From a virus (taxonomy: Duplodnaviria > Heunggongvirae > Uroviricota > Caudoviricetes), in IMG/VR virus record IMGVR_UViG_2700989170_000002: a stretch of DNA of 4,414 nucleotides, one strand, 5' to 3'. The notes under the pieces are model-generated. The model was not told the DNA's origin. It made no database searches and saw only the letters and a program-made list of their open reading frames with translations. Within the stretch, counting starts at the first letter, position 1, and every line of letters starts with the position of its first letter. A program made the translations under genes and the position numbers. Below, piece by piece: positions 1 to 4,407 of this stretch.

Positions 1-1446
1 TTTTTTGATGTCGCGCATCATTTTTGCGAAGCGGCGCATCATGTATGCATAGCGAACGGCTGAGAGAACGTCATCGTTAAGCTTGACGATCTTCCCGTTT
101 TCATCACGGTGATAGAGGCGGAACTCCTCAAAGAATGGCTCACAGGTGTTGAATACTTTGAAGCGTCCATCGAGCATCATGTCGCGCAATTCAGTGATGC
201 CAGGCTCAACAGCATTACCGCCATCAGGCCATGTCGCATGCTCCTGCAACATCATAAAACCAGCGTCCGCGTACTGCCCTTTAAGCTGCTCACCGCCGCC
301 CTTCTCGTGCTGGTTTCCGTCATGAGGCCATGCGGTTGGCACTTTATGCGCCCAAGATTTAACGGCTCCCCACGCCTGAACGGCTGTTTTTTCTTTCGCC
401 TTCCACACGCGTGAAACGTAGATTGTGTCTGCGTCCTTATCCCACCAAAGCTGAACCTGCGCCTGCGGGTGATCCCATCCGAAATCCATACCGCCAATTA
501 CGTAAAAGTGATCAGGGCACTCGAACGGCTGACACTTAATCGTCTCTTCCGGTATCTGGAAGATTCGCCCGCTACCCATCGTAGGAATACCGCGAGCACG
601 CGCCTCTCTCTCATGCTCAGGATAGGATGCGATGATTTGCTCTTTCTGCTCGTCGGTGTAGTGCTCAGCGTCATAGATGGTCATGTTGACCACTTTCTGC
701 GACTTGCTGGGATTCTTCAGGAACTTGGTAACAACGTCAGACATCCCCATCAGCGGGGTAAACGTCAGAATTGAGAATTGCCCGTATTTGTTGGTACGGG
801 TAAGCCCTTCGCCATAAATGCTGTATGGTGGTTCTTCGTCAAACCACACACCGTGGATTGTGTCACCCTGCCAGCGAGCACGGCCTTGCGAGTATGGTTT
901 GAAGTAGCAGATTGAAATGCCATCTTCAACGCCATCAGCCGTGTGATGCTTAACCAGAAGATGATCAACAAGGTTCGGAAAGAAAGGAGACTTCTTCCAG
1001 CTAATGATGTCTTCTTTAGGTATGGAACCGTAGCCTGGCTCATCATTCTCTTCGATACGACCACACAGGATGCGTTGAGTCGTTTTGGTTACAGTTTCGT
1101 TTGTCTCGCCGCCAATCCAGAAGACAACAGGTTCATAGAAACGCTTACCTTTCCACTCACCGCCATATTTACCATCAGCAGGATAGCCTTTTGTGCCCGG
1201 ATAACGCCCGGTAAGGTGAAACGCGACTTCAGCAGCACCAGTAAATGACTTACCAAGCTGGTTACCAGCCATAAAACATCGCTCTGGATAGTCATGCCCG
1301 GCGTCGATGAACTCACGCTGTTTGCTGTATGGCGTAAATTCATATAGCAGGTGTGTGTTCCGGTAGTTCTCTTCTTCTTCGAGTAGCTCGAGCAATTCGA
1401 TTTGCTCTTCATCGCTCAGGTTATCAAGAATCGCGTCCAGTTCCAC
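1..1446 (-). CDS. Phage terminase large subunit (TerL); N-terminal 482 codons in window, C-terminal end lies beyond position 1
   Basis: Hand translation of the minus strand from GTG at 1446-1444 gives an unbroken frame to position 1: [102 protein letters not shown]...[16 protein letters not shown]...[17 protein letters not shown]...[20 protein letters not shown]. It has a Walker A-like motif AGNQLGKS (about codons 60-67), a Walker B-like VWFDEEPP, and an Asp-containing IGGMDFGWD segment that fits a C-terminal RNaseH-like nuclease domain. An AGGAG Shine-Dalgarno lies about 10 nt upstream of the GTG. It is missing from the ORF track because it has a GTG start and no stop inside the window; the track ORFs at 109-414, 469-774, 943-1248 (+) and 252-497, 765-1064, 1089-1412 (-) are alternative-frame or antisense artefacts of this gene. 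The exact start codon is less certain than the gene call. Confidence 0.88.
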
Positions 1447-1918
1447 GGTTGAATAGCTCCTTGATACGAGAGCGCCGCTTATCGCGATCTCCCTTATCAG
1501 GTGTCACGTCTTCAACTTGCGACTGCTCTTTGAGGCCCAAATCACGGGCGATGATGTTAGCGTTGAGAAGGTCAGCGGCTGCGCCAGAGAACTTCTGGTC
1601 GTAGATGATGTCTTCCGCTCGTGATGTGACGTCAGAAAAACCTTCCATTGACCGGAAGGTTCCCCATGTTTGCCTGGTGATATCAAGGAAGGTACACAAT
1701 CCTGAAATAGTCATGGCTCGCATCTTAGGGACATTAGCCTTAATTATTTCTCCCTGATATGAAAATACCTTACCCTCCCATAGCGGGTTATCATCAGCCC
1801 ACTCGAAGTATTCACAACAAGCAGCCCACAGCGCCTCAGGCGATTCGAATTTAGGGTTTCGCCCATGACTACTGCGGGCCTCCCAAAATCGGTTGCCCTT
1901 TGGTGCTGCCATATTCAT
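1424..1918 (-). CDS. Phage terminase small subunit (TerS), putative
   Basis: A 164-aa ORF lies immediately upstream of TerL, and its stop (1426-1424) overlaps the TerL start by about 23 nt, the usual terS-terL coupling. The N-terminus is basic ([31 protein letters not shown]...), as expected for a DNA-recognition region, and the C-terminal tail is charged. Start could be the ATG at 1918 or 1912. The assignment rests on position, size and composition, not on a verified homology search. Confidence 0.7.
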
Positions 1919-1935
1919 CTCACTTAATCGTTATT

Positions 1936-2115
1936 TCAGGTTAAGGACTCTTTCGCGCCTTCAATCAGTGACTGCTTCAGCAATTCGAGTGTACCAATCG
2001 CCTCGCATAAACTGATTTCACCATCATAATCATGAATAACGCTTTCAAGCCGCTCGTATAGCTCTTGAGTAATTGGGAATTTCTTCTCCTTACCCAAATT
2101 GATTACGCGGCTCAC
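1936..2115 (-). CDS. Small hypothetical protein (59 aa), GTG start, translationally coupled to the upstream 80-aa ORF
   Basis: Not in the ORF track. GTG at 2115-2113 follows a GGAG Shine-Dalgarno at 2125-2122 with a 6-nt spacer, and sits 1 nt past the TGA of the upstream ORF. Translation: VSRVINLGKEKKFPITQELYERLESVIHDYDGEISLCEAIGTLELLKQSLIEGAKESLT, stop TGA at 1938-1936. The frame is closed upstream by a TAG at 2142-2140. Composition is protein-like and probably helical. It ends about 20 nt before the TerS start. Confidence 0.4.
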   Translation of the reverse strand: MSRVINLGKEKKFPITQELYERLESVIHDYDGEISLCEAIGTLELLKQSLIEGAKESLT

Positions 2116-2116
2116 A

Positions 2117-2359
2117 TCATGCTCCGGTAGTAAACAGGTCTAACGCTTCCTTCGATTTACGCACCGCTTCGATAGTTCGGGTCGTGATATCTGAATTAGC
2201 GCCACCTGACTGGAAGTGAATTTTGAATAGCTCAAGCTTCAGCTCGTCAGTGCCAATGAATTGAAATGCTTCTTCTGCGGCTGCGTTCTGGTTCATGACC
2301 AGTTTGTAAATCTCTAACTGGAATTTCTGTTCTTCAGTCATGGGAATAATCTCTGCCAT
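2117..2359 (-). CDS. Small hypothetical phage protein (80 aa)
   Basis: ATG at 2359 is preceded by GGAG with a 6-nt spacer (minus-strand sequence ACGGAGCCAACAATG). Protein: MAEIIPMTEEQKFQLEIYKLVMNQNAAAEEAFQFIGTDELKLELFKIHFQSGGANSDITTRTIEAVRKSKEALDLFTTGA. No motif recognised. GC content is similar to the terminase genes. Confidence 0.55.
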   Translation of the reverse strand: MAEIIPMTEEQKFQLEIYKLVMNQNAAAEEAFQFIGTDELKLELFKIHFQSGGANSDITTRTIEAVRKSKEALDLFTTGA

Positions 2360-2428
2360 TGTTGGCTCCGTTTATCCGTTAAAAGGGATATCAGTTAAGT
2401 TATCCCGTGTAGGGTATAAGCCATTGTC

Positions 2429-2451
2429 GAGACCACTCATTGAATGGTCTC
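2429..2451. repeat. Perfect 7-bp inverted repeat (GAGACCA / TGGTCTC) with a 9-nt spacer in the non-coding spacer
   Basis: Plus strand 2429-2435 GAGACCA and 2445-2451 TGGTCTC are exact reverse complements. No U-tract follows on either strand, so this is not a canonical terminator; it could be a protein-binding site or an RNA hairpin. Confidence 0.35.
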
Positions 2452-2607
2452 TGCAATAACCGATGTCTTTCCATCAGTCCGCCACCACAAAGAATCTTTT
2501 TTTGCCATAAGGCAGGAGGTTCATCTTTCAGTGGCTGCCAGTGTTATTTCCCCACTTACTGGCTTGGGTTGTTTCGCTGTACTGCCGTTAATTAGTGAGT
2601 CCGGGGA

Positions 2608-3093
2608 TTATTTCAGTTCGTTACCAGGCATTTCTTTTAGCTCTTTCAAATGACAACGATTGAGGCTAAACCACTCCCCGTGCGACCTATAGTTGTAATA
2701 TTTTTGGTGCAATTTGGTTTCAAGCTCTCTATCGGCCGGAATCTTTGCAATTAGATTTAGCTTCCCACCACTCATGCGAGATATCTCTGAAATTCGTTTA
2801 TTAACCCTGCGACTAAACCCTATTTTTGTTAGCCCACTATCTTCAGCATGCAGAACGTACACATATGATTTTTGCGAAGCACTGGGTGCGACTTTGTTGT
2901 AATTAATCATGTCAAACATAAAGCCTTGCTTTAGCAAAGTTTCAAAAAAGATAGAATTAACACACCCATTCCTTCTCAGCTCTGCACTTAGCTTGTCAAT
3001 TTCCTCTATGATGTCGCCAGACCCCTTTCCACTTATAAGAAAATCTTGGTACATGCGACCAATTCTTGAGGTAATTTCAACAAAGTTATTCAT
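2608..3093 (-). CDS. T5orf172/MUG113-family (GIY-YIG-like) domain protein, 161 aa; accessory gene of unknown function
   Basis: ATG at 3093 with an AAAGG Shine-Dalgarno-like sequence about 8 nt upstream. The C-terminal half (about codons 77-145, nt ~2659-2865) carries the motif order YVYVL...KIGFS...RRVNKR...GEWF, which matches the GIY-like / (Y/K)IG / conserved Arg / GEWF pattern of the T5orf172 branch of the GIY-YIG superfamily. The N-terminal ~75 aa have no recognised motif. The gene lies in a stretch of about 37% GC, against about 50% GC in the terminase genes. Confidence 0.7.
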   Translation of the reverse strand: MNNFVEITSRIGRMYQDFLISGKGSGDIIEEIDKLSAELRRNGCVNSIFFETLLKQGFMFDMINYNKVAPSASQKSYVYVLHAEDSGLTKIGFSRRVNKRISEISRMSGGKLNLIAKIPADRELETKLHQKYYNYRSHGEWFSLNRCHLKELKEMPGNELK

Positions 3094-3239
3094 AGCGTTT
3101 ACCTTTTAGAAAGATGAGCCTGTTCGCACAGAAAAGCCGCCCCCGAGATGGTCGCCACCATATACGGCAATTCTCAGGCTCAGCTTTCTGAAAGACTCGG
3201 GATTGTTACGCGCTGCGATGCGCGGTTTACTGCAGATGT

Positions 3240-3263
3240 AAAAAAGCCCCGCAAATGCGAGGC
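3240..3263 (-). terminator. Rho-independent (intrinsic) terminator on the minus strand
   Basis: Minus strand reads GCCTCGC-ATTT-GCGGGGC-TTTTTT: a 7-bp GC-rich stem (6 Watson-Crick pairs plus one G-U), a 4-nt loop and a run of six U. On the plus strand the hairpin is followed by TAAATCC, so it would work on the minus strand only. Confidence 0.6.
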
Positions 3264-3344
3264 TAAATCCTGGTATTTGTAATGACTGGCTCTTATCTCA
3301 ACGCAGCCCCTTACCGCGCGCCAGATGCTCAATATCAAGCATCA

Positions 3345-3633
3345 NNNNNNNNNNNNNNNNNNNNNNNNNNNNNNNNNNNNNNNNNNNNNNNNNNNNNNNN
3401 NNNNNNNNNNNNNNNNNNNNNNNNNNNNNNNNNNNNNNNNNNNNNNNNNNNNNNNNNNNNNNNNNNNNNNNNNNNNNNNNNNNNNNNNNNNNNNNNNNNN
3501 NNNNNNNNNNNNNNNNNNNNNNNNNNNNNNNNNNNNNNNNNNNNNNNNNNNNNNNNNNNNNNNNNNNNNNNNNNNNNNNNNNNNNNNNNNNNNNNNNNNN
3601 NNNNNNNNNNNNNNNNNNNNNNNNNNNNNNNNN
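3345..3633. other. Run of 289 N (assembly gap or masked sequence)
   Basis: The sequence shows N at every position from 3345 to 3633. The run removes the 3' portions of Rz and Rz1 and any sequence between them and position 3344. All ORF-track entries that span it (3282-3785, 3298-3762, 3325-3723, 3335-3934) are artefacts of translating N as X. Confidence 0.99.
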
Positions 3634-3735
3634 TGCTGGCTCCGGTCGTTGACTTTGCACAGGTGGCGGCGACTTGCAGGCGCTTACGCCCAGCAGAAAC
3701 ATCAGCACGGAGACTTTCGATAGTCGCGTTAGCAT
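3634..3735 (-). CDS. Rz1: o-spanin Rz1 (outer-membrane lipoprotein spanin), 5' part only; 3' end lost in the N-gap
   Basis: ATG at 3735-3733 is preceded by AAGGAG (3748-3743) with a 7-nt spacer. It lies in the +1 frame inside Rz. Visible product: [34 protein letters not shown], a signal peptide with lipobox (VSAC) followed by a Pro-rich segment, as in lambda Rz1. The upstream ATG at 3762 has no Shine-Dalgarno and is less likely. Confidence 0.8.
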
Positions 3736-3934
3736 CAGCAAGCTCCTTTGTATATCTGGCATCGAGTTCTGCTACATCACGTTGACGCTTCTGCATGTCA
3801 GCAATTGTGGATGCGGCCTTATCGCGCTGCTCTTTGTAGGCGATGGCGTTATCACGGTAGTGATTAACAGCCCATGACAGGCAAACGATGATGCAGATAA
3901 CCAGAGCGGAGATAATCGCGGTTACTTTGCTCAT
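3634..3934 (-). CDS. Rz: i-spanin Rz (inner-membrane spanin), N-terminal 100 codons visible; 3' end lost in the N-gap
   Basis: ATG at 3934-3932 overlaps the R stop as ATGA. Product [100 protein letters not shown]... is near-identical at the N-terminus to lambda Rz (N-terminal transmembrane domain, then a coiled-coil periplasmic region). By analogy with lambda Rz (153 aa) the true stop should fall near 3470-3480 inside the gap; the track's 199-aa length is an artefact. Confidence 0.9.
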
Positions 3935-4407
3935 ACCTCAATCTCTCTGACCGTTCCGCCTGCCTCTTTGAATTTTGCAATCAGGCTGTCAGCCTTATGC
4001 TCGAACTGACCATAACCAGCGCCAGGCAGTGAAGCCCAGATATTGCTGCAACGGTCGATAGCCTGACGAATATCACCGCGATCAATCATCGGTAAAGCGC
4101 CACGCTCTTTAATCTGTTGCAGTGCCACAGCGTCCTGGCTTTTCGGAGAGAAGTCTTTCAGGCCAAGCTGCTTACGGTAGGCATCCCACCAACGGGAAAG
4201 AAGCTGGTAGCGTCCGGCGGCTGTTGATTTGAGTTTCGGATTTAGCGTGACAAGTTTGCGAGGGTGATCAGAGTAATCAGTGAATAGCTCTCCGCCAACA
4301 ATGACGTCATAACCATGATTTCTGGTTTTTTGACGTCCGTTATCAGTTCCCTCTGACCACGCCAGCATATCGAGGAACGCCTTACGTTGATTATTGATTT
4401 CCACCAT
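3931..4407 (-). CDS. R: Endolysin, lambda R-type lytic transglycosylase
   Basis: The 158-aa product [62 protein letters not shown]... is near-identical to phage lambda R, including the catalytic Glu in the LAWSEGTD motif. A TAG at 4413-4411 just upstream is probably the stop of a holin gene lying outside the window. Confidence 0.95.

What the first reader, a model, noticed from the sequence alone, without database searches (positions are those of the whole stretch)
2400..3130. Low-GC island consistent with a horizontally acquired insert
Hand counts of 60-nt blocks give about 37% GC at 2881-3000, against about 50% at 1201-1260 (TerL) and 2161-2220 (80-aa ORF). The island covers the T5orf172 gene and its flanking non-coding DNA and is bounded upstream by the terminator at 3240-3263. 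This is the usual signature of a moron inserted into a lambdoid late operon.
Basis: seen in the sequence. Interest (0 to 1): 0.45.

Follow-up and report, generated by a model that had tools for sequence, protein, structure and literature searches.

The report
Swappable nuclease cassette in P22-like phage
The low-GC stretch is real but modest: it is one small nuclease gene, already annotated as gene 68 of Salmonella phage epsilon34, sitting in a swap-prone slot between the lysis and DNA-packaging genes of P22-like phages, so it is an ordinary case of phage mosaicism.

Summary
The real trough is the 486-bp coding sequence at 2608-3093 (38.9% GC, against 50.5% outside). The non-coding DNA on either side is not low in GC (46% and 50%). 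An unbiased segmentation instead picks the whole region between the lysis and terminase genes, 1910-3116 (41.9%).

Measured against a whole phage genome the dip is mild: 5.6th percentile, with ordinary codon usage. Composition alone is therefore weak evidence for transfer.

Synteny supports horizontal exchange much better. The window is a P22-like late region. Its T5orf172/GIY-YIG gene is identical in protein to epsilon34 gp68 and differs at 1 of 486 nt, while the terminase genes are only 85.6% identical. Only 58 of 5426 complete E. coli genomes carry the gene.

Relatives carry Rha, KilA-N or Tad2-like genes at the same position. The homology breaks fall exactly on the stop and start codons, and both flanks are shared. 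This is therefore a swap of one ORF within a known hypervariable slot. It is not an insertion that brought its own flanks.

It is also not a textbook moron. I found no promoter, no downstream terminator and no clean empty site. Already known; low interest.

The parts
3931..4407 (-). Endolysin (lambda R-type lysozyme), 158 aa
   Evidence: PHROG phrog_90 endolysin, E=1.6e-63. 95-97% nt identity to the endolysin genes of epsilon34, Sf101 and HZ41.
3335..3934 (-). Rz-type spanin gene. Only its 5' part (3634-3934) is readable, because 3345-3633 is an N mask that also hides Rz1 and the true Rz stop. The 3335 end is an artefact of the ORF running through the mask.
   Evidence: ORF list and N run. Homologous to the annotated Rz-like spanins of epsilon34, Sf101 and HK106.
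3298..3344 (-). 3' end of a small ORF homologous to epsilon34 gene 67 / Sf6 gene 65. Its start is masked.
   Evidence: The ORF ends ...MLDIEHLARGKGLR*. It aligns to epsilon34 gp67 with 0 differences in 47 nt.
3245..3264 (-). Intrinsic terminator downstream of the lysis cassette, upstream of the cargo gene
   Evidence: 8-bp stem (6 G-C pairs), 4-nt loop, then TTTTTT. Annotated as a rho-independent terminator in epsilon34 and HK106.
3094..3244 (-). Conserved leader with ribosome-binding site (AAAGG, 8 nt before the ATG). It belongs to the slot, not to the cargo.
   Evidence: 98% identical in the Rha carrier Sf101 and the KilA-N carrier ABTNLsp11242, 81-86% in Stx phages, and 67-71% in front of the T5orf172 homologues with about 60% aa identity. 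GC 50.3%. No promoter-like site.
2608..3093 (-). Cargo ORF: 161-aa protein with an acidic three-helix N-terminal domain (residues 1-70) and a T5orf172/MUG113 (GIY-YIG-type) domain (77-154). This is the actual GC trough, 38.9%.
2360..2607 (-). Conserved non-coding spacer (46% GC), a mosaic scar. It holds a 23-codon remnant of the start of ST64T orf118 (2437-2508), and further recombination joints at about 2373/2401 and 2438/2462.
   Evidence: 92-99% identical in P22-likes with other cargo, and in HK97, HK022 and mEp234. The epsilon34 record annotates the orf118 relic. P22, Huey and E. coli 18KM2445 have extra DNA at the inner joints. RNA fold z = -4.0.
2117..2359 (-). DUF2560 gene (P22 ORF80 homologue), 80 aa
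   Evidence: Pfam DUF2560 E=1.1e-43. GC 44.9%.
1936..2115 (-). 59-aa ORF of unknown function (phrog_3546). Variable: absent from epsilon34 and HZ41.
   Evidence: PHROG E=1.4e-42. Homology breaks at 1945/2115 and 1912/2119. GC 43.9%.
1424..1918 (-). Small terminase subunit (P22 gp3 type)
   Evidence: Pfam GP3_package E=8.6e-31. phrog_606.
1..1446 (-). Large terminase subunit, N-terminal 482 aa (runs off the window)
   Evidence: Pfam Terminase_6N and Terminase_6C. 97.5% nt identity to Escherichia phage HZ41 and 89% to P22.

Best explanation
The GC trough is the coding sequence of one accessory gene, a 161-aa T5orf172/GIY-YIG-type nuclease identical in protein to epsilon34 gp68. It occupies the first cargo position of a hypervariable accessory region that lies between the spanin genes and the small-terminase gene in P22-like and other lambdoid phages.

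Shown:
- The position is filled in relatives by at least four other unrelated ORF types: Rha+ORF11CD3, KilA-N, Tad2-like, and a T5orf172 allele with 32% aa identity.
- Short conserved linkers frame the position: the terminator plus leader (3094-3264) and the spacer (2462-2607). The joints fall on the start and stop codons.
- The cassette is much more similar between Salmonella and E. coli phages than the neighbouring genes are.

Inferred:
- Cassettes are exchanged by homologous recombination in the shared linkers.
- The gene has no promoter of its own. It is transcribed late, as part of the PR' operon, when Q-modified polymerase reads through the terminator at 3245-3264.
- The protein is an active small DNA nuclease. 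It serves either phage-phage or phage-host conflict, or its own spread.
- The lower GC reflects membership of a mobile accessory gene pool. The family is 4-9 points below its neighbours in every background examined.
For: Synteny and gene content of a P22-like late region.

Homology with Rha and KilA-N carriers stops at 2588-2610 and resumes at 3087-3089. Base-level alignments show the breaks at the TTA stop and the CAT (ATG) start.

Pfam identities of the alternative cargo.

Rarity: 5 of 319 phage records (3 distinct phages) and 58 of 5426 complete E. coli genomes, always single-copy and chromosomal, with 56 of the 58 at 99% identity or more.

Identity gradient against epsilon34: 1 difference in 486 nt in the cargo, 9 in 241 in DUF2560, 95.6% in R-Rz, 85.6% in the terminase genes.

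In E. coli prophages the same cargo is combined with different neighbours: a PBSX-type terminase in 18KM2445, and a Gp49 gene inserted next to it in EC6.

Homologues with 58-62% aa identity, and one with 32%, sit at the same spanin-to-TerS junction in lambdoid phages with unrelated holin, endolysin and terminase modules. They are also lower in GC than their neighbours: 42.4 against about 49, 44.9 against about 54, and 43.1 against 47.9.

No promoter-like site, and no downstream terminator.

Against: There are no expression data, and the promoter scans are simple consensus matches, so a weak or non-sigma-70 promoter cannot be excluded.

Recombination in the linkers is inferred from the pattern, not observed. 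Illegitimate recombination followed by selection for intact genes would give the same codon-exact joints.

Within the whole phage, GC3 and codon bias are unremarkable, so 'foreign gene pool' is not proven by composition.
Confidence: 0.72

Rival explanations
1. Classical moron. An autonomous promoter-gene-terminator unit was inserted between two late genes. It is expressed from the repressed prophage and benefits the lysogen.
For: The gene is accessory, sporadically distributed and lower in GC than its neighbours. It follows a terminator that insulates it from upstream transcription. The epsilon34 paper defines morons as usually independently expressed genes that appear inserted when relatives are compared (PMC2629481).
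Against: No sigma-70-like promoter lies between the terminator and the ATG (0 hits at the standard threshold; best relaxed match 7 of 12). No terminator lies downstream on the coding strand. The leader and RBS are shared with relatives that carry Rha or KilA-N, so the regulatory DNA did not arrive with the gene. No clean empty site was found. The epsilon34 authors list six prophage-expressed genes and do not include gene 68.
Confidence: 0.08
2. Free-standing homing endonuclease gene. The protein cleaves cassette-less (Rha or KilA-N) alleles near the slot. Double-strand-break repair then copies the gene, plus co-converted flanks, into the recipient phage during co-infection or prophage encounters.
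For: T5orf172 is a GIY-YIG subfamily. It has been proposed as a major class of phage homing endonuclease genes, often located next to essential genes such as terL, and marking boundaries of genetic exchange (PMC10448857). The catalytic-type residues are invariant. Distribution is sporadic, and copies are near-identical across Salmonella and E. coli phages. Identity peaks on the gene and decays outward. GC is lower than in the neighbours. Presence or absence is exactly ORF-sized, between conserved linkers.
Against: There is no recognisable DNA-binding module. The N-terminal domain is an acidic (pI 5.2) three-helix bundle with no Zn-finger cysteines or HTH, whereas 87% of the surveyed T5orf172 endonuclease genes carry CapR/DUF723/DUF4397 Zn-finger domains. 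At 161 aa the protein looks short for a free-standing endonuclease (my own recollection of typical sizes, not checked here). The alternative alleles are other genes, not an empty target. The family has kept the same junction across divergence down to 32% aa identity in different phage types, which looks more like long residence than cycles of homing and decay. All 58 E. coli copies matched at least 80% of the gene, so none looks grossly decayed.
Confidence: 0.15
3. No transfer signal at all. The dip is an ordinary compositional fluctuation caused by the amino-acid make-up of one small protein.
For: GC1 (0.44) and GC2 (0.33) are as depressed as GC3 (0.40). Within epsilon34, GC3 ranks only 15th of 71 and codon bias is average. 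5.6% of all 486-nt windows in that genome are as low or lower.
Against: Synteny shows independently that the ORF is exchanged. GC3 is also 0.10-0.15 below the neighbours in three other backgrounds. The change-point statistic exceeds nearly all shuffles.
Confidence: 0.04

Closest known systems
Salmonella phage epsilon34 gene 68 (YP_002533529, 'GIY-YIG nuclease family protein'), g341c gene 64, and the NM-3 homologue
   Same: The protein is 100% identical. The CDS differs at 1 of 486 nt from epsilon34. The position is the same (Rz - gp67 - terminator - gene - spacer - DUF2560), and the 985-bp block is 99.3-99.5% identical.
   Different: The surrounding modules differ. The terminase genes are only 85.6% identical. 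epsilon34 has gp70/gp71 (Dec-like) where the window has orf59.
P22 rha (ORF201) and HK620 hkbK (KilA-N): the other occupants of the same slot
   Same: They share the flanking leader and spacer, with joints exact to the codon. Rha, KilA-N and T5orf172 domains belong to one domain-shuffling network of phage proteins, as summarised in bioRxiv 10.1101/2020.11.28.402263.
   Different: The protein folds and families are unrelated. Their GC is 43.5-48.3%, against 38.9% here.
Escherichia phage HK106 gp64 (HK97-like siphovirus)
   Same: Same two-domain architecture and length (162 aa). Same position after Rz and the terminator. The left linker is 97.5% identical.
   Different: Only 32% aa identity, with no detectable nt similarity within the gene. 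It is followed by an HNH gene rather than DUF2560-TerS.
T5orf172 homing endonuclease genes of vibriophage ICP1 and T5-like phages (Barth, Dunham & Seed 2023)
   Same: Same Pfam domain (T5orf172/MUG113). Same location next to packaging genes and at a boundary of genetic exchange.
   Different: Those proteins usually carry Zn-finger DNA-binding domains (CapR, DUF723, DUF4397). This one has a small acidic helical domain, and it sits in a temperate lambdoid phage.
Lambdoid morons (for example the 'ant moron' of P22-like phages)
   Same: An accessory, variable region within the late operon whose composition differs from that of the core genes.
   Different: No promoter or terminator of its own was detected. 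The regulatory flanks are shared with the alternative cargo.

Membership tests
Moron (as defined in PMC2629481, citing Hendrix and co-workers) | The gene is present between two genes that are adjacent in related phages | tested here: inconclusive
   The gene is present in few relatives and absent from most. Where it is absent, the position holds another gene. The only near-empty relative is a deletion derivative.
Moron (as defined in PMC2629481, citing Hendrix and co-workers) | Own promoter allowing independent expression, for example from the prophage | tested here: not met
   There are 0 promoter-like sites in 1900-3344 (2.5 expected by chance). The best relaxed match in the leader is 7 of 12. 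These are consensus scans only. Expression itself cannot be tested here.
Moron (as defined in PMC2629481, citing Hendrix and co-workers) | Own terminator downstream of the gene | tested here: not met
   No terminator-like site lies on the minus strand between 2607 and 2360. The only strong one (3245-3264) lies upstream and is shared with relatives that lack the gene.
Moron (as defined in PMC2629481, citing Hendrix and co-workers) | Nucleotide composition differs from the surrounding genes | tested here: met
   38.9% against 50.5%. 6th lowest of 71 genes in epsilon34. The effect is modest, and codon bias is ordinary.
T5orf172 / MUG113 (GIY-YIG superfamily) | Matches the family profiles above the curated cut-off | tested here: met
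   MUG113 scores 50.1 bits (cut-off 22.3). T5orf172 scores 39.2 bits (cut-off 20).
T5orf172 / MUG113 (GIY-YIG superfamily) | Conserved Tyr, (Y/K)IG, Arg and Glu motifs on a b-b-a-b-a core | tested here: met
   Y79, K90-I91-G92, R100 and E125 are invariant or nearly so in 18-25 homologues. They lie on strand 1, strand 2, helix 1 and helix 2 of the pLDDT-94.5 model.
T5orf172 / MUG113 (GIY-YIG superfamily) | GIY-YIG fold by structure comparison | tested here: inconclusive
T5orf172 / MUG113 (GIY-YIG superfamily) | Nuclease activity | not testable with these tools
   Needs biochemistry.
Free-standing homing endonuclease gene | A nuclease domain plus a separate sequence-specific DNA-binding domain | tested here: not met
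   The N-terminal domain (1-70) is an acidic three-helix bundle (pI 5.2) with no Zn-finger or HTH. Structure searches returned only generic helical bundles.
Free-standing homing endonuclease gene | Sporadic presence in otherwise collinear genomes, with an intact cognate empty site | tested here: inconclusive
   Sporadic presence: yes. Clean empty site: none found among the loci examined.
Free-standing homing endonuclease gene | Cleavage of the allele that lacks the gene, and super-Mendelian inheritance | not testable with these tools
   Needs cleavage assays and phage crosses.
P22-like (Lederbergvirus) late region | Gene order holin-endolysin-Rz/Rz1 ... DUF2560 ... gp3-type TerS - TerL, with high nt identity to members | tested here: met
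   94-97.5% nt identity to Escherichia phages APC_JM3.2, E212, HZ41 and IME10, and 89% to P22, with matching annotation.

The most novel reading that the evidence does not exclude
This two-domain T5orf172 family could be a lineage of homing-type nucleases specialised for the lysis-to-terminase junction of temperate lambdoid phages. On this reading, cleavage and repair at the junction would drive two things. One is the unusual 97-99% conservation of the non-coding linkers across otherwise divergent phages (P22-like, HK97-like, Stx). The other is the reshuffling of whole lysis and packaging modules on either side. It would be a temperate-phage counterpart of the 'nuclease genes at boundaries of genetic exchange' described for ICP1 and T4.
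Probability: 0.1. Interest if true: 0.55.

Novelty: already known. Interest (0 to 1): 0.15.

Why it matters
The finding matters little in itself. The gene was annotated in phage epsilon34 in 2008, and mosaic exchange at gene boundaries in lambdoid phages is textbook.

There are two practical points. First, a GC dip of this size is not enough to call horizontal acquisition in a phage, because 5-6% of the genome looks the same. Synteny both settles the question here and moves the borders. Second, the spanin-to-TerS region of P22-like phages is a compact accessory slot. Besides this nuclease it holds Tad2-like (anti-Thoeris-type), Gp49/Sf6-66, Rha and KilA-N genes, so it is a reasonable place to look for counter-defence or inter-phage competition genes.

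Tried and rejected
- Rfam, all families at E<=1 over the window: no hit.
- NCBIfam: no hit for the three small proteins.
- PADLOC: only a weak PDC-S57 match (E=4e-4, 18 bits), not taken as evidence of a defence role.
- phmmer against PDB sequences: designer pentatricopeptide repeats matched residues 17-56, but each repeat scores about 5 bits and the total is inflated by repetition. Rejected as meaningless.
- Profile of the family against PDB sequences: best hit is a GIY-YIG UPF0213 protein at E=0.5, which is not significant.
- Foldseek (PDB) with the full-length model: nothing at E<=0.001.
It was repeated with A2.
- SEN22 first looked like an empty site. Reading its sequence showed that it keeps the 3' end of a KilA-N gene and has lost the leader and terminator, so it is a deletion derivative.
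- Literature searches for a description of this particular slot as a moron or anti-defence hotspot found nothing specific.
- A covariation test of the structured spacer was not attempted, because the available homologues are all more than 92% identical.

Full report
WHAT THE WINDOW IS

All genes run on the minus strand. In order of transcription they are:
- an R-type endolysin (3931-4407);
- an Rz-type spanin (from 3934 downward, partly hidden by an N mask at 3345-3633);
- the 3' end of a small ORF like epsilon34 gene 67 (stop at 3298);
- an intrinsic terminator (3245-3264);
- a 150-nt leader;
- a 161-aa T5orf172/MUG113 gene (2608-3093);
- a 248-bp non-coding spacer;
- DUF2560 (2117-2359, the P22 ORF80 homologue);
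- a 59-aa ORF (1936-2115);
- gp3-type small terminase (1424-1918);
- the first 482 codons of the large terminase (1-1446).

Megablast places the window among P22-like phages (Lederbergvirus). It is 94-97.5% identical to Escherichia phages APC_JM3.2, E212, HZ41 and IME10, and 89% identical to P22 over the terminase genes.

CHECK OF THE OBSERVATION

GC is 36.7% at 2881-3000, 50.0% at 1201-1260 and 51.7% at 2161-2220. The range 2400-3130 is 41.5%, against 50.5% outside.

The trough is the CDS itself (38.9%; GC1/2/3 = 0.44/0.33/0.40). The downstream spacer is 46.0% and the upstream leader 50.3%, so the 'flanking non-coding DNA' is not part of the dip. DUF2560 and orf59 are also somewhat low (44-45%). 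A maximum-likelihood single-island fit on 1-3344 chooses 1910-3116 (41.9% against 50.6%). The fit has 2*dLL = 23.3. On the coarse grid used for the null it is 21.5, and 200 iid shuffles gave mean 9.7, sd 2.9 and maximum 21.5. The compositionally distinct unit is therefore the whole stretch between the lysis cassette and TerS, with the T5orf172 ORF as its deepest point.

For a proper background I used the complete genome of Salmonella phage epsilon34 (43,016 bp, 47.3% GC), which carries the same gene. There the gene is the 6th lowest of 71 genes, and 5.6% of all 486-nt windows are as low or lower. The other low patches are the gtr O-antigen genes, genes 14-15 of the 'ant moron', and the immunity region. 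Its GC3 (0.40) ranks 15th of 71, and its Karlin codon bias (0.45) is 8th of 24 genes of 350-700 nt. The dip is real but mild. Taken alone, it would not establish foreign origin.

WHAT SYNTENY SHOWS

A 985-bp query (2360-3344) finds 319 phage records, but only five cover it fully. These represent three phages: epsilon34, g341c and NM-3, at 99.3-99.5% identity.

In other relatives both flanks match and the middle does not. Pairwise BLAST against nine relatives gives consistent breakpoints. Homology ends at 2588-2610 and resumes at 3087-3089 in phages that carry Rha (Sf101, APC_JM3.2) or KilA-N (ABTNLsp11242), and in HK106, which carries the distant T5orf172 allele described below. P22 (Rha) shares the left break at 2610, but its homology does not resume until 3635. 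Base-level alignments show that the left joint is the TTA stop codon (2608-2610). The right joint is the CAT (ATG) start codon (3091-3093). The ribosome-binding site and leader are shared.

Pfam identifies the alternative occupants:
- Rha+ORF11CD3 in P22 ORF201 and Sf101;
- KilA-N in ABTNLsp11242 (HK620 hkbK is also annotated KilA-N);
- Tad2-like in HZ41 and Huey;
- a second T5orf172 allele in the HK97-like phage HK106. This allele has only 32% aa identity although its left linker is 97.5% identical.

SEN22 looked empty. Its sequence shows the 3' end of a KilA-N gene fused to the region beyond the terminator, so it is a deletion derivative and not a pristine site.

The spacer contains further joints. 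P22 has 630 extra bp at 2373/2401. Huey has a Phage_gp49_66 gene at 2460/2462. E. coli prophages have extra DNA or a Gp49 gene at about the same place. The region is thus a string of cargo positions separated by short conserved linkers. The event behind the finding is the replacement of one ORF, not an insertion that brought its own flanks.

EVIDENCE THAT THE CASSETTE MOVES

Compared with epsilon34, the T5orf172 CDS has 1 difference in 486 nt, and the protein is identical. The spacer has 2 differences in 248 nt, the leader 2 in 204, and DUF2560 9 in 241. R-Rz is 95.6% identical and the terminase genes 85.6%.

In complete E. coli genomes the CDS occurs in 58 of 5426. It is always single-copy and chromosomal, and 56 copies are at least 99% identical. 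It is combined with different neighbours: a PBSX-type terminase in strain 18KM2445, and an adjacent Gp49 gene with no orf59 in strain EC6.

The block is not conserved in all relatives. It supports 'horizontally acquired', but on comparative grounds rather than compositional ones.

IS IT A MORON?

[quoted passage not shown] It names the 'ant moron' as the only one in the morphogenetic cluster, and it does not list gene 68 among the genes expected to be prophage-expressed (PMC2629481).

In this window:
- No sigma-70-like promoter is found anywhere in 1900-3344 at the standard threshold (2.5 expected by chance).
- A relaxed scan of the leader gives at best 7 of 12 matches.
- There is no terminator downstream of the gene on the coding strand.
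- The terminator and leader are shared with relatives that lack the gene. They are recognisable even after the spanin genes of Stx phages, and in front of the T5orf172 homologues with about 60% aa identity.

The most economical reading is late expression by read-through. It is established knowledge for lambdoid phages that Q-modified polymerase initiating at PR' ignores terminators. That it does so at this terminator is my inference.

THE PROTEIN

Pfam gives MUG113 (E=4.2e-13) and T5orf172 (E=1.1e-9) for residues 77-154. PHROGs places the whole protein in phrog_4284, of unknown function.

An exhaustive HMMER search found 5717 proteins sharing the C-terminal domain, but only 22 at E<=1e-10 and about a dozen representatives that align over both domains. 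In alignments of 18-25 homologues, Y79, K90, R100, E125, L128, H129 and E140-W141-F142 are invariant. I91, G92 and R136 are nearly so.

The N-domain is acidic (pI 5.2) and has no Zn-finger cysteines. T5orf172 has been described as a GIY-YIG subfamily and proposed as a class of homing endonuclease genes in ICP1 and other phages. Those genes often lie next to essential genes such as terL, and 87% of them carry Zn-finger DNA-binding domains (PMC10448857). The domain also co-occurs with Bro-N and KilA-N domains (bioRxiv 10.1101/2020.11.28.402263).

A CONSISTENT ADDRESS

Homologues with 58-62% aa identity lie between the spanin and the small terminase in three lambdoid contigs whose holin, endolysin and terminase families differ from those here. 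HK106 repeats the pattern at 32% identity. One degraded prophage carries an Rz::MUG113 fusion at the same place. In each intact case the gene is 4-9 GC points, and 0.10-0.15 in GC3, below its neighbours. Low GC is therefore a property of the family wherever it sits, not a mark of one recent event.

VERDICT

Best explanation (confidence about 0.7): this is an accessory ORF cassette in a hypervariable slot, exchanged through conserved linkers, transcribed late, and encoding a small GIY-YIG-type nuclease. What the nuclease does is not settled. A conflict role is suggested by its slot-mates (Tad2-like, Rha, KilA-N). A selfish homing role is suggested by the family's reputation and by the identity peak on the gene. 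The lack of a DNA-binding module and the absence of empty sites weaken the homing role.

Its interpretation is partly supported: horizontally exchanged, yes; a moron with its own flanks, no. The gene and the phenomenon are already known, so the interest is low.

Noticed in passing
window 2360-2607 (minus strand): This 248-bp non-coding spacer is 97-99% identical to unannotated DNA in HK97, HK022, mEp234 and mEpX2, and 92-97% identical in most P22-likes, even though the neighbouring genes differ. The minus-strand RNA folds unusually well (z = -4.0, 0 of 200 shuffles as stable), with a 10-bp hairpin at about 2430-2452 that coincides with a mosaic joint. It also holds a 23-codon relic of the start of ST64T orf118 (2437-2508).
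   Followed up: partly
window 3094-3264 (minus strand): The terminator plus 150-nt leader is a conserved unit after the spanin genes in many lambdoid phages: 98% in P22-likes with Rha or KilA-N, 81-86% in Stx1/Stx2 phages, and 67-71% in front of distant T5orf172 homologues. It contains a 14-nt palindrome, ATGGTGGCGACCAT (3143-3156), and a CGCGC-N6-GCGCG hairpin. Its function is unknown.
   Followed up: partly
L003 3994-4473 (phage HZ41); L009 997-1497 and 382-762 (phage Huey); L018 3442-3822 (E. coli EC6): The same accessory region carries Tad2-like (Thoeris anti-defence 2-like) genes and Phage_gp49_66 genes in relatives. This suggests that the spanin-to-TerS interval of P22-like phages is a counter-defence or accessory hotspot with at least two or three independent cargo positions.
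   Followed up: partly
L013 5001-5486, L015 5001-5552, L017 4001-4486, L006 1215-1703: Homologues of the two-domain T5orf172 protein, at 32-62% aa identity, always sit between the spanin and the small terminase in lambdoid phages with unrelated lysis and packaging modules. They are always lower in GC than their neighbours.
   Followed up: yes
L016 4001-4498: A degraded prophage next to an integrase gene encodes a 165-aa chimeric ORF with Rz (Phage_lysis) and YbcO matches at the N-terminus and a MUG113 C-terminus. It is apparently a deletion that fused the spanin gene to the T5orf172 gene.
   Followed up: no
window 3345-3633: A run of 289 N masks the 3' part of Rz, all of Rz1 and the start of the ORF like epsilon34 gene 67. 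ORFs listed through it (for example 3335-3934 and 3298-3762) are artefacts of the mask.
   Followed up: yes
window 2926-3045 (protein residues 17-56): The second and third helices of the N-terminal domain resemble a single pentatricopeptide-repeat hairpin (designer PPR proteins, summed E=3e-6, but only about 5 bits per repeat). This is probably a generic helical-hairpin similarity.
   Followed up: partly
window 1912-2119: orf59 (phrog_3546) is itself a variable cassette. It is absent from HZ41 (joint 1945/2115) and replaced by gp70/gp71 in epsilon34 (joint 1912/2119).
   Followed up: partly
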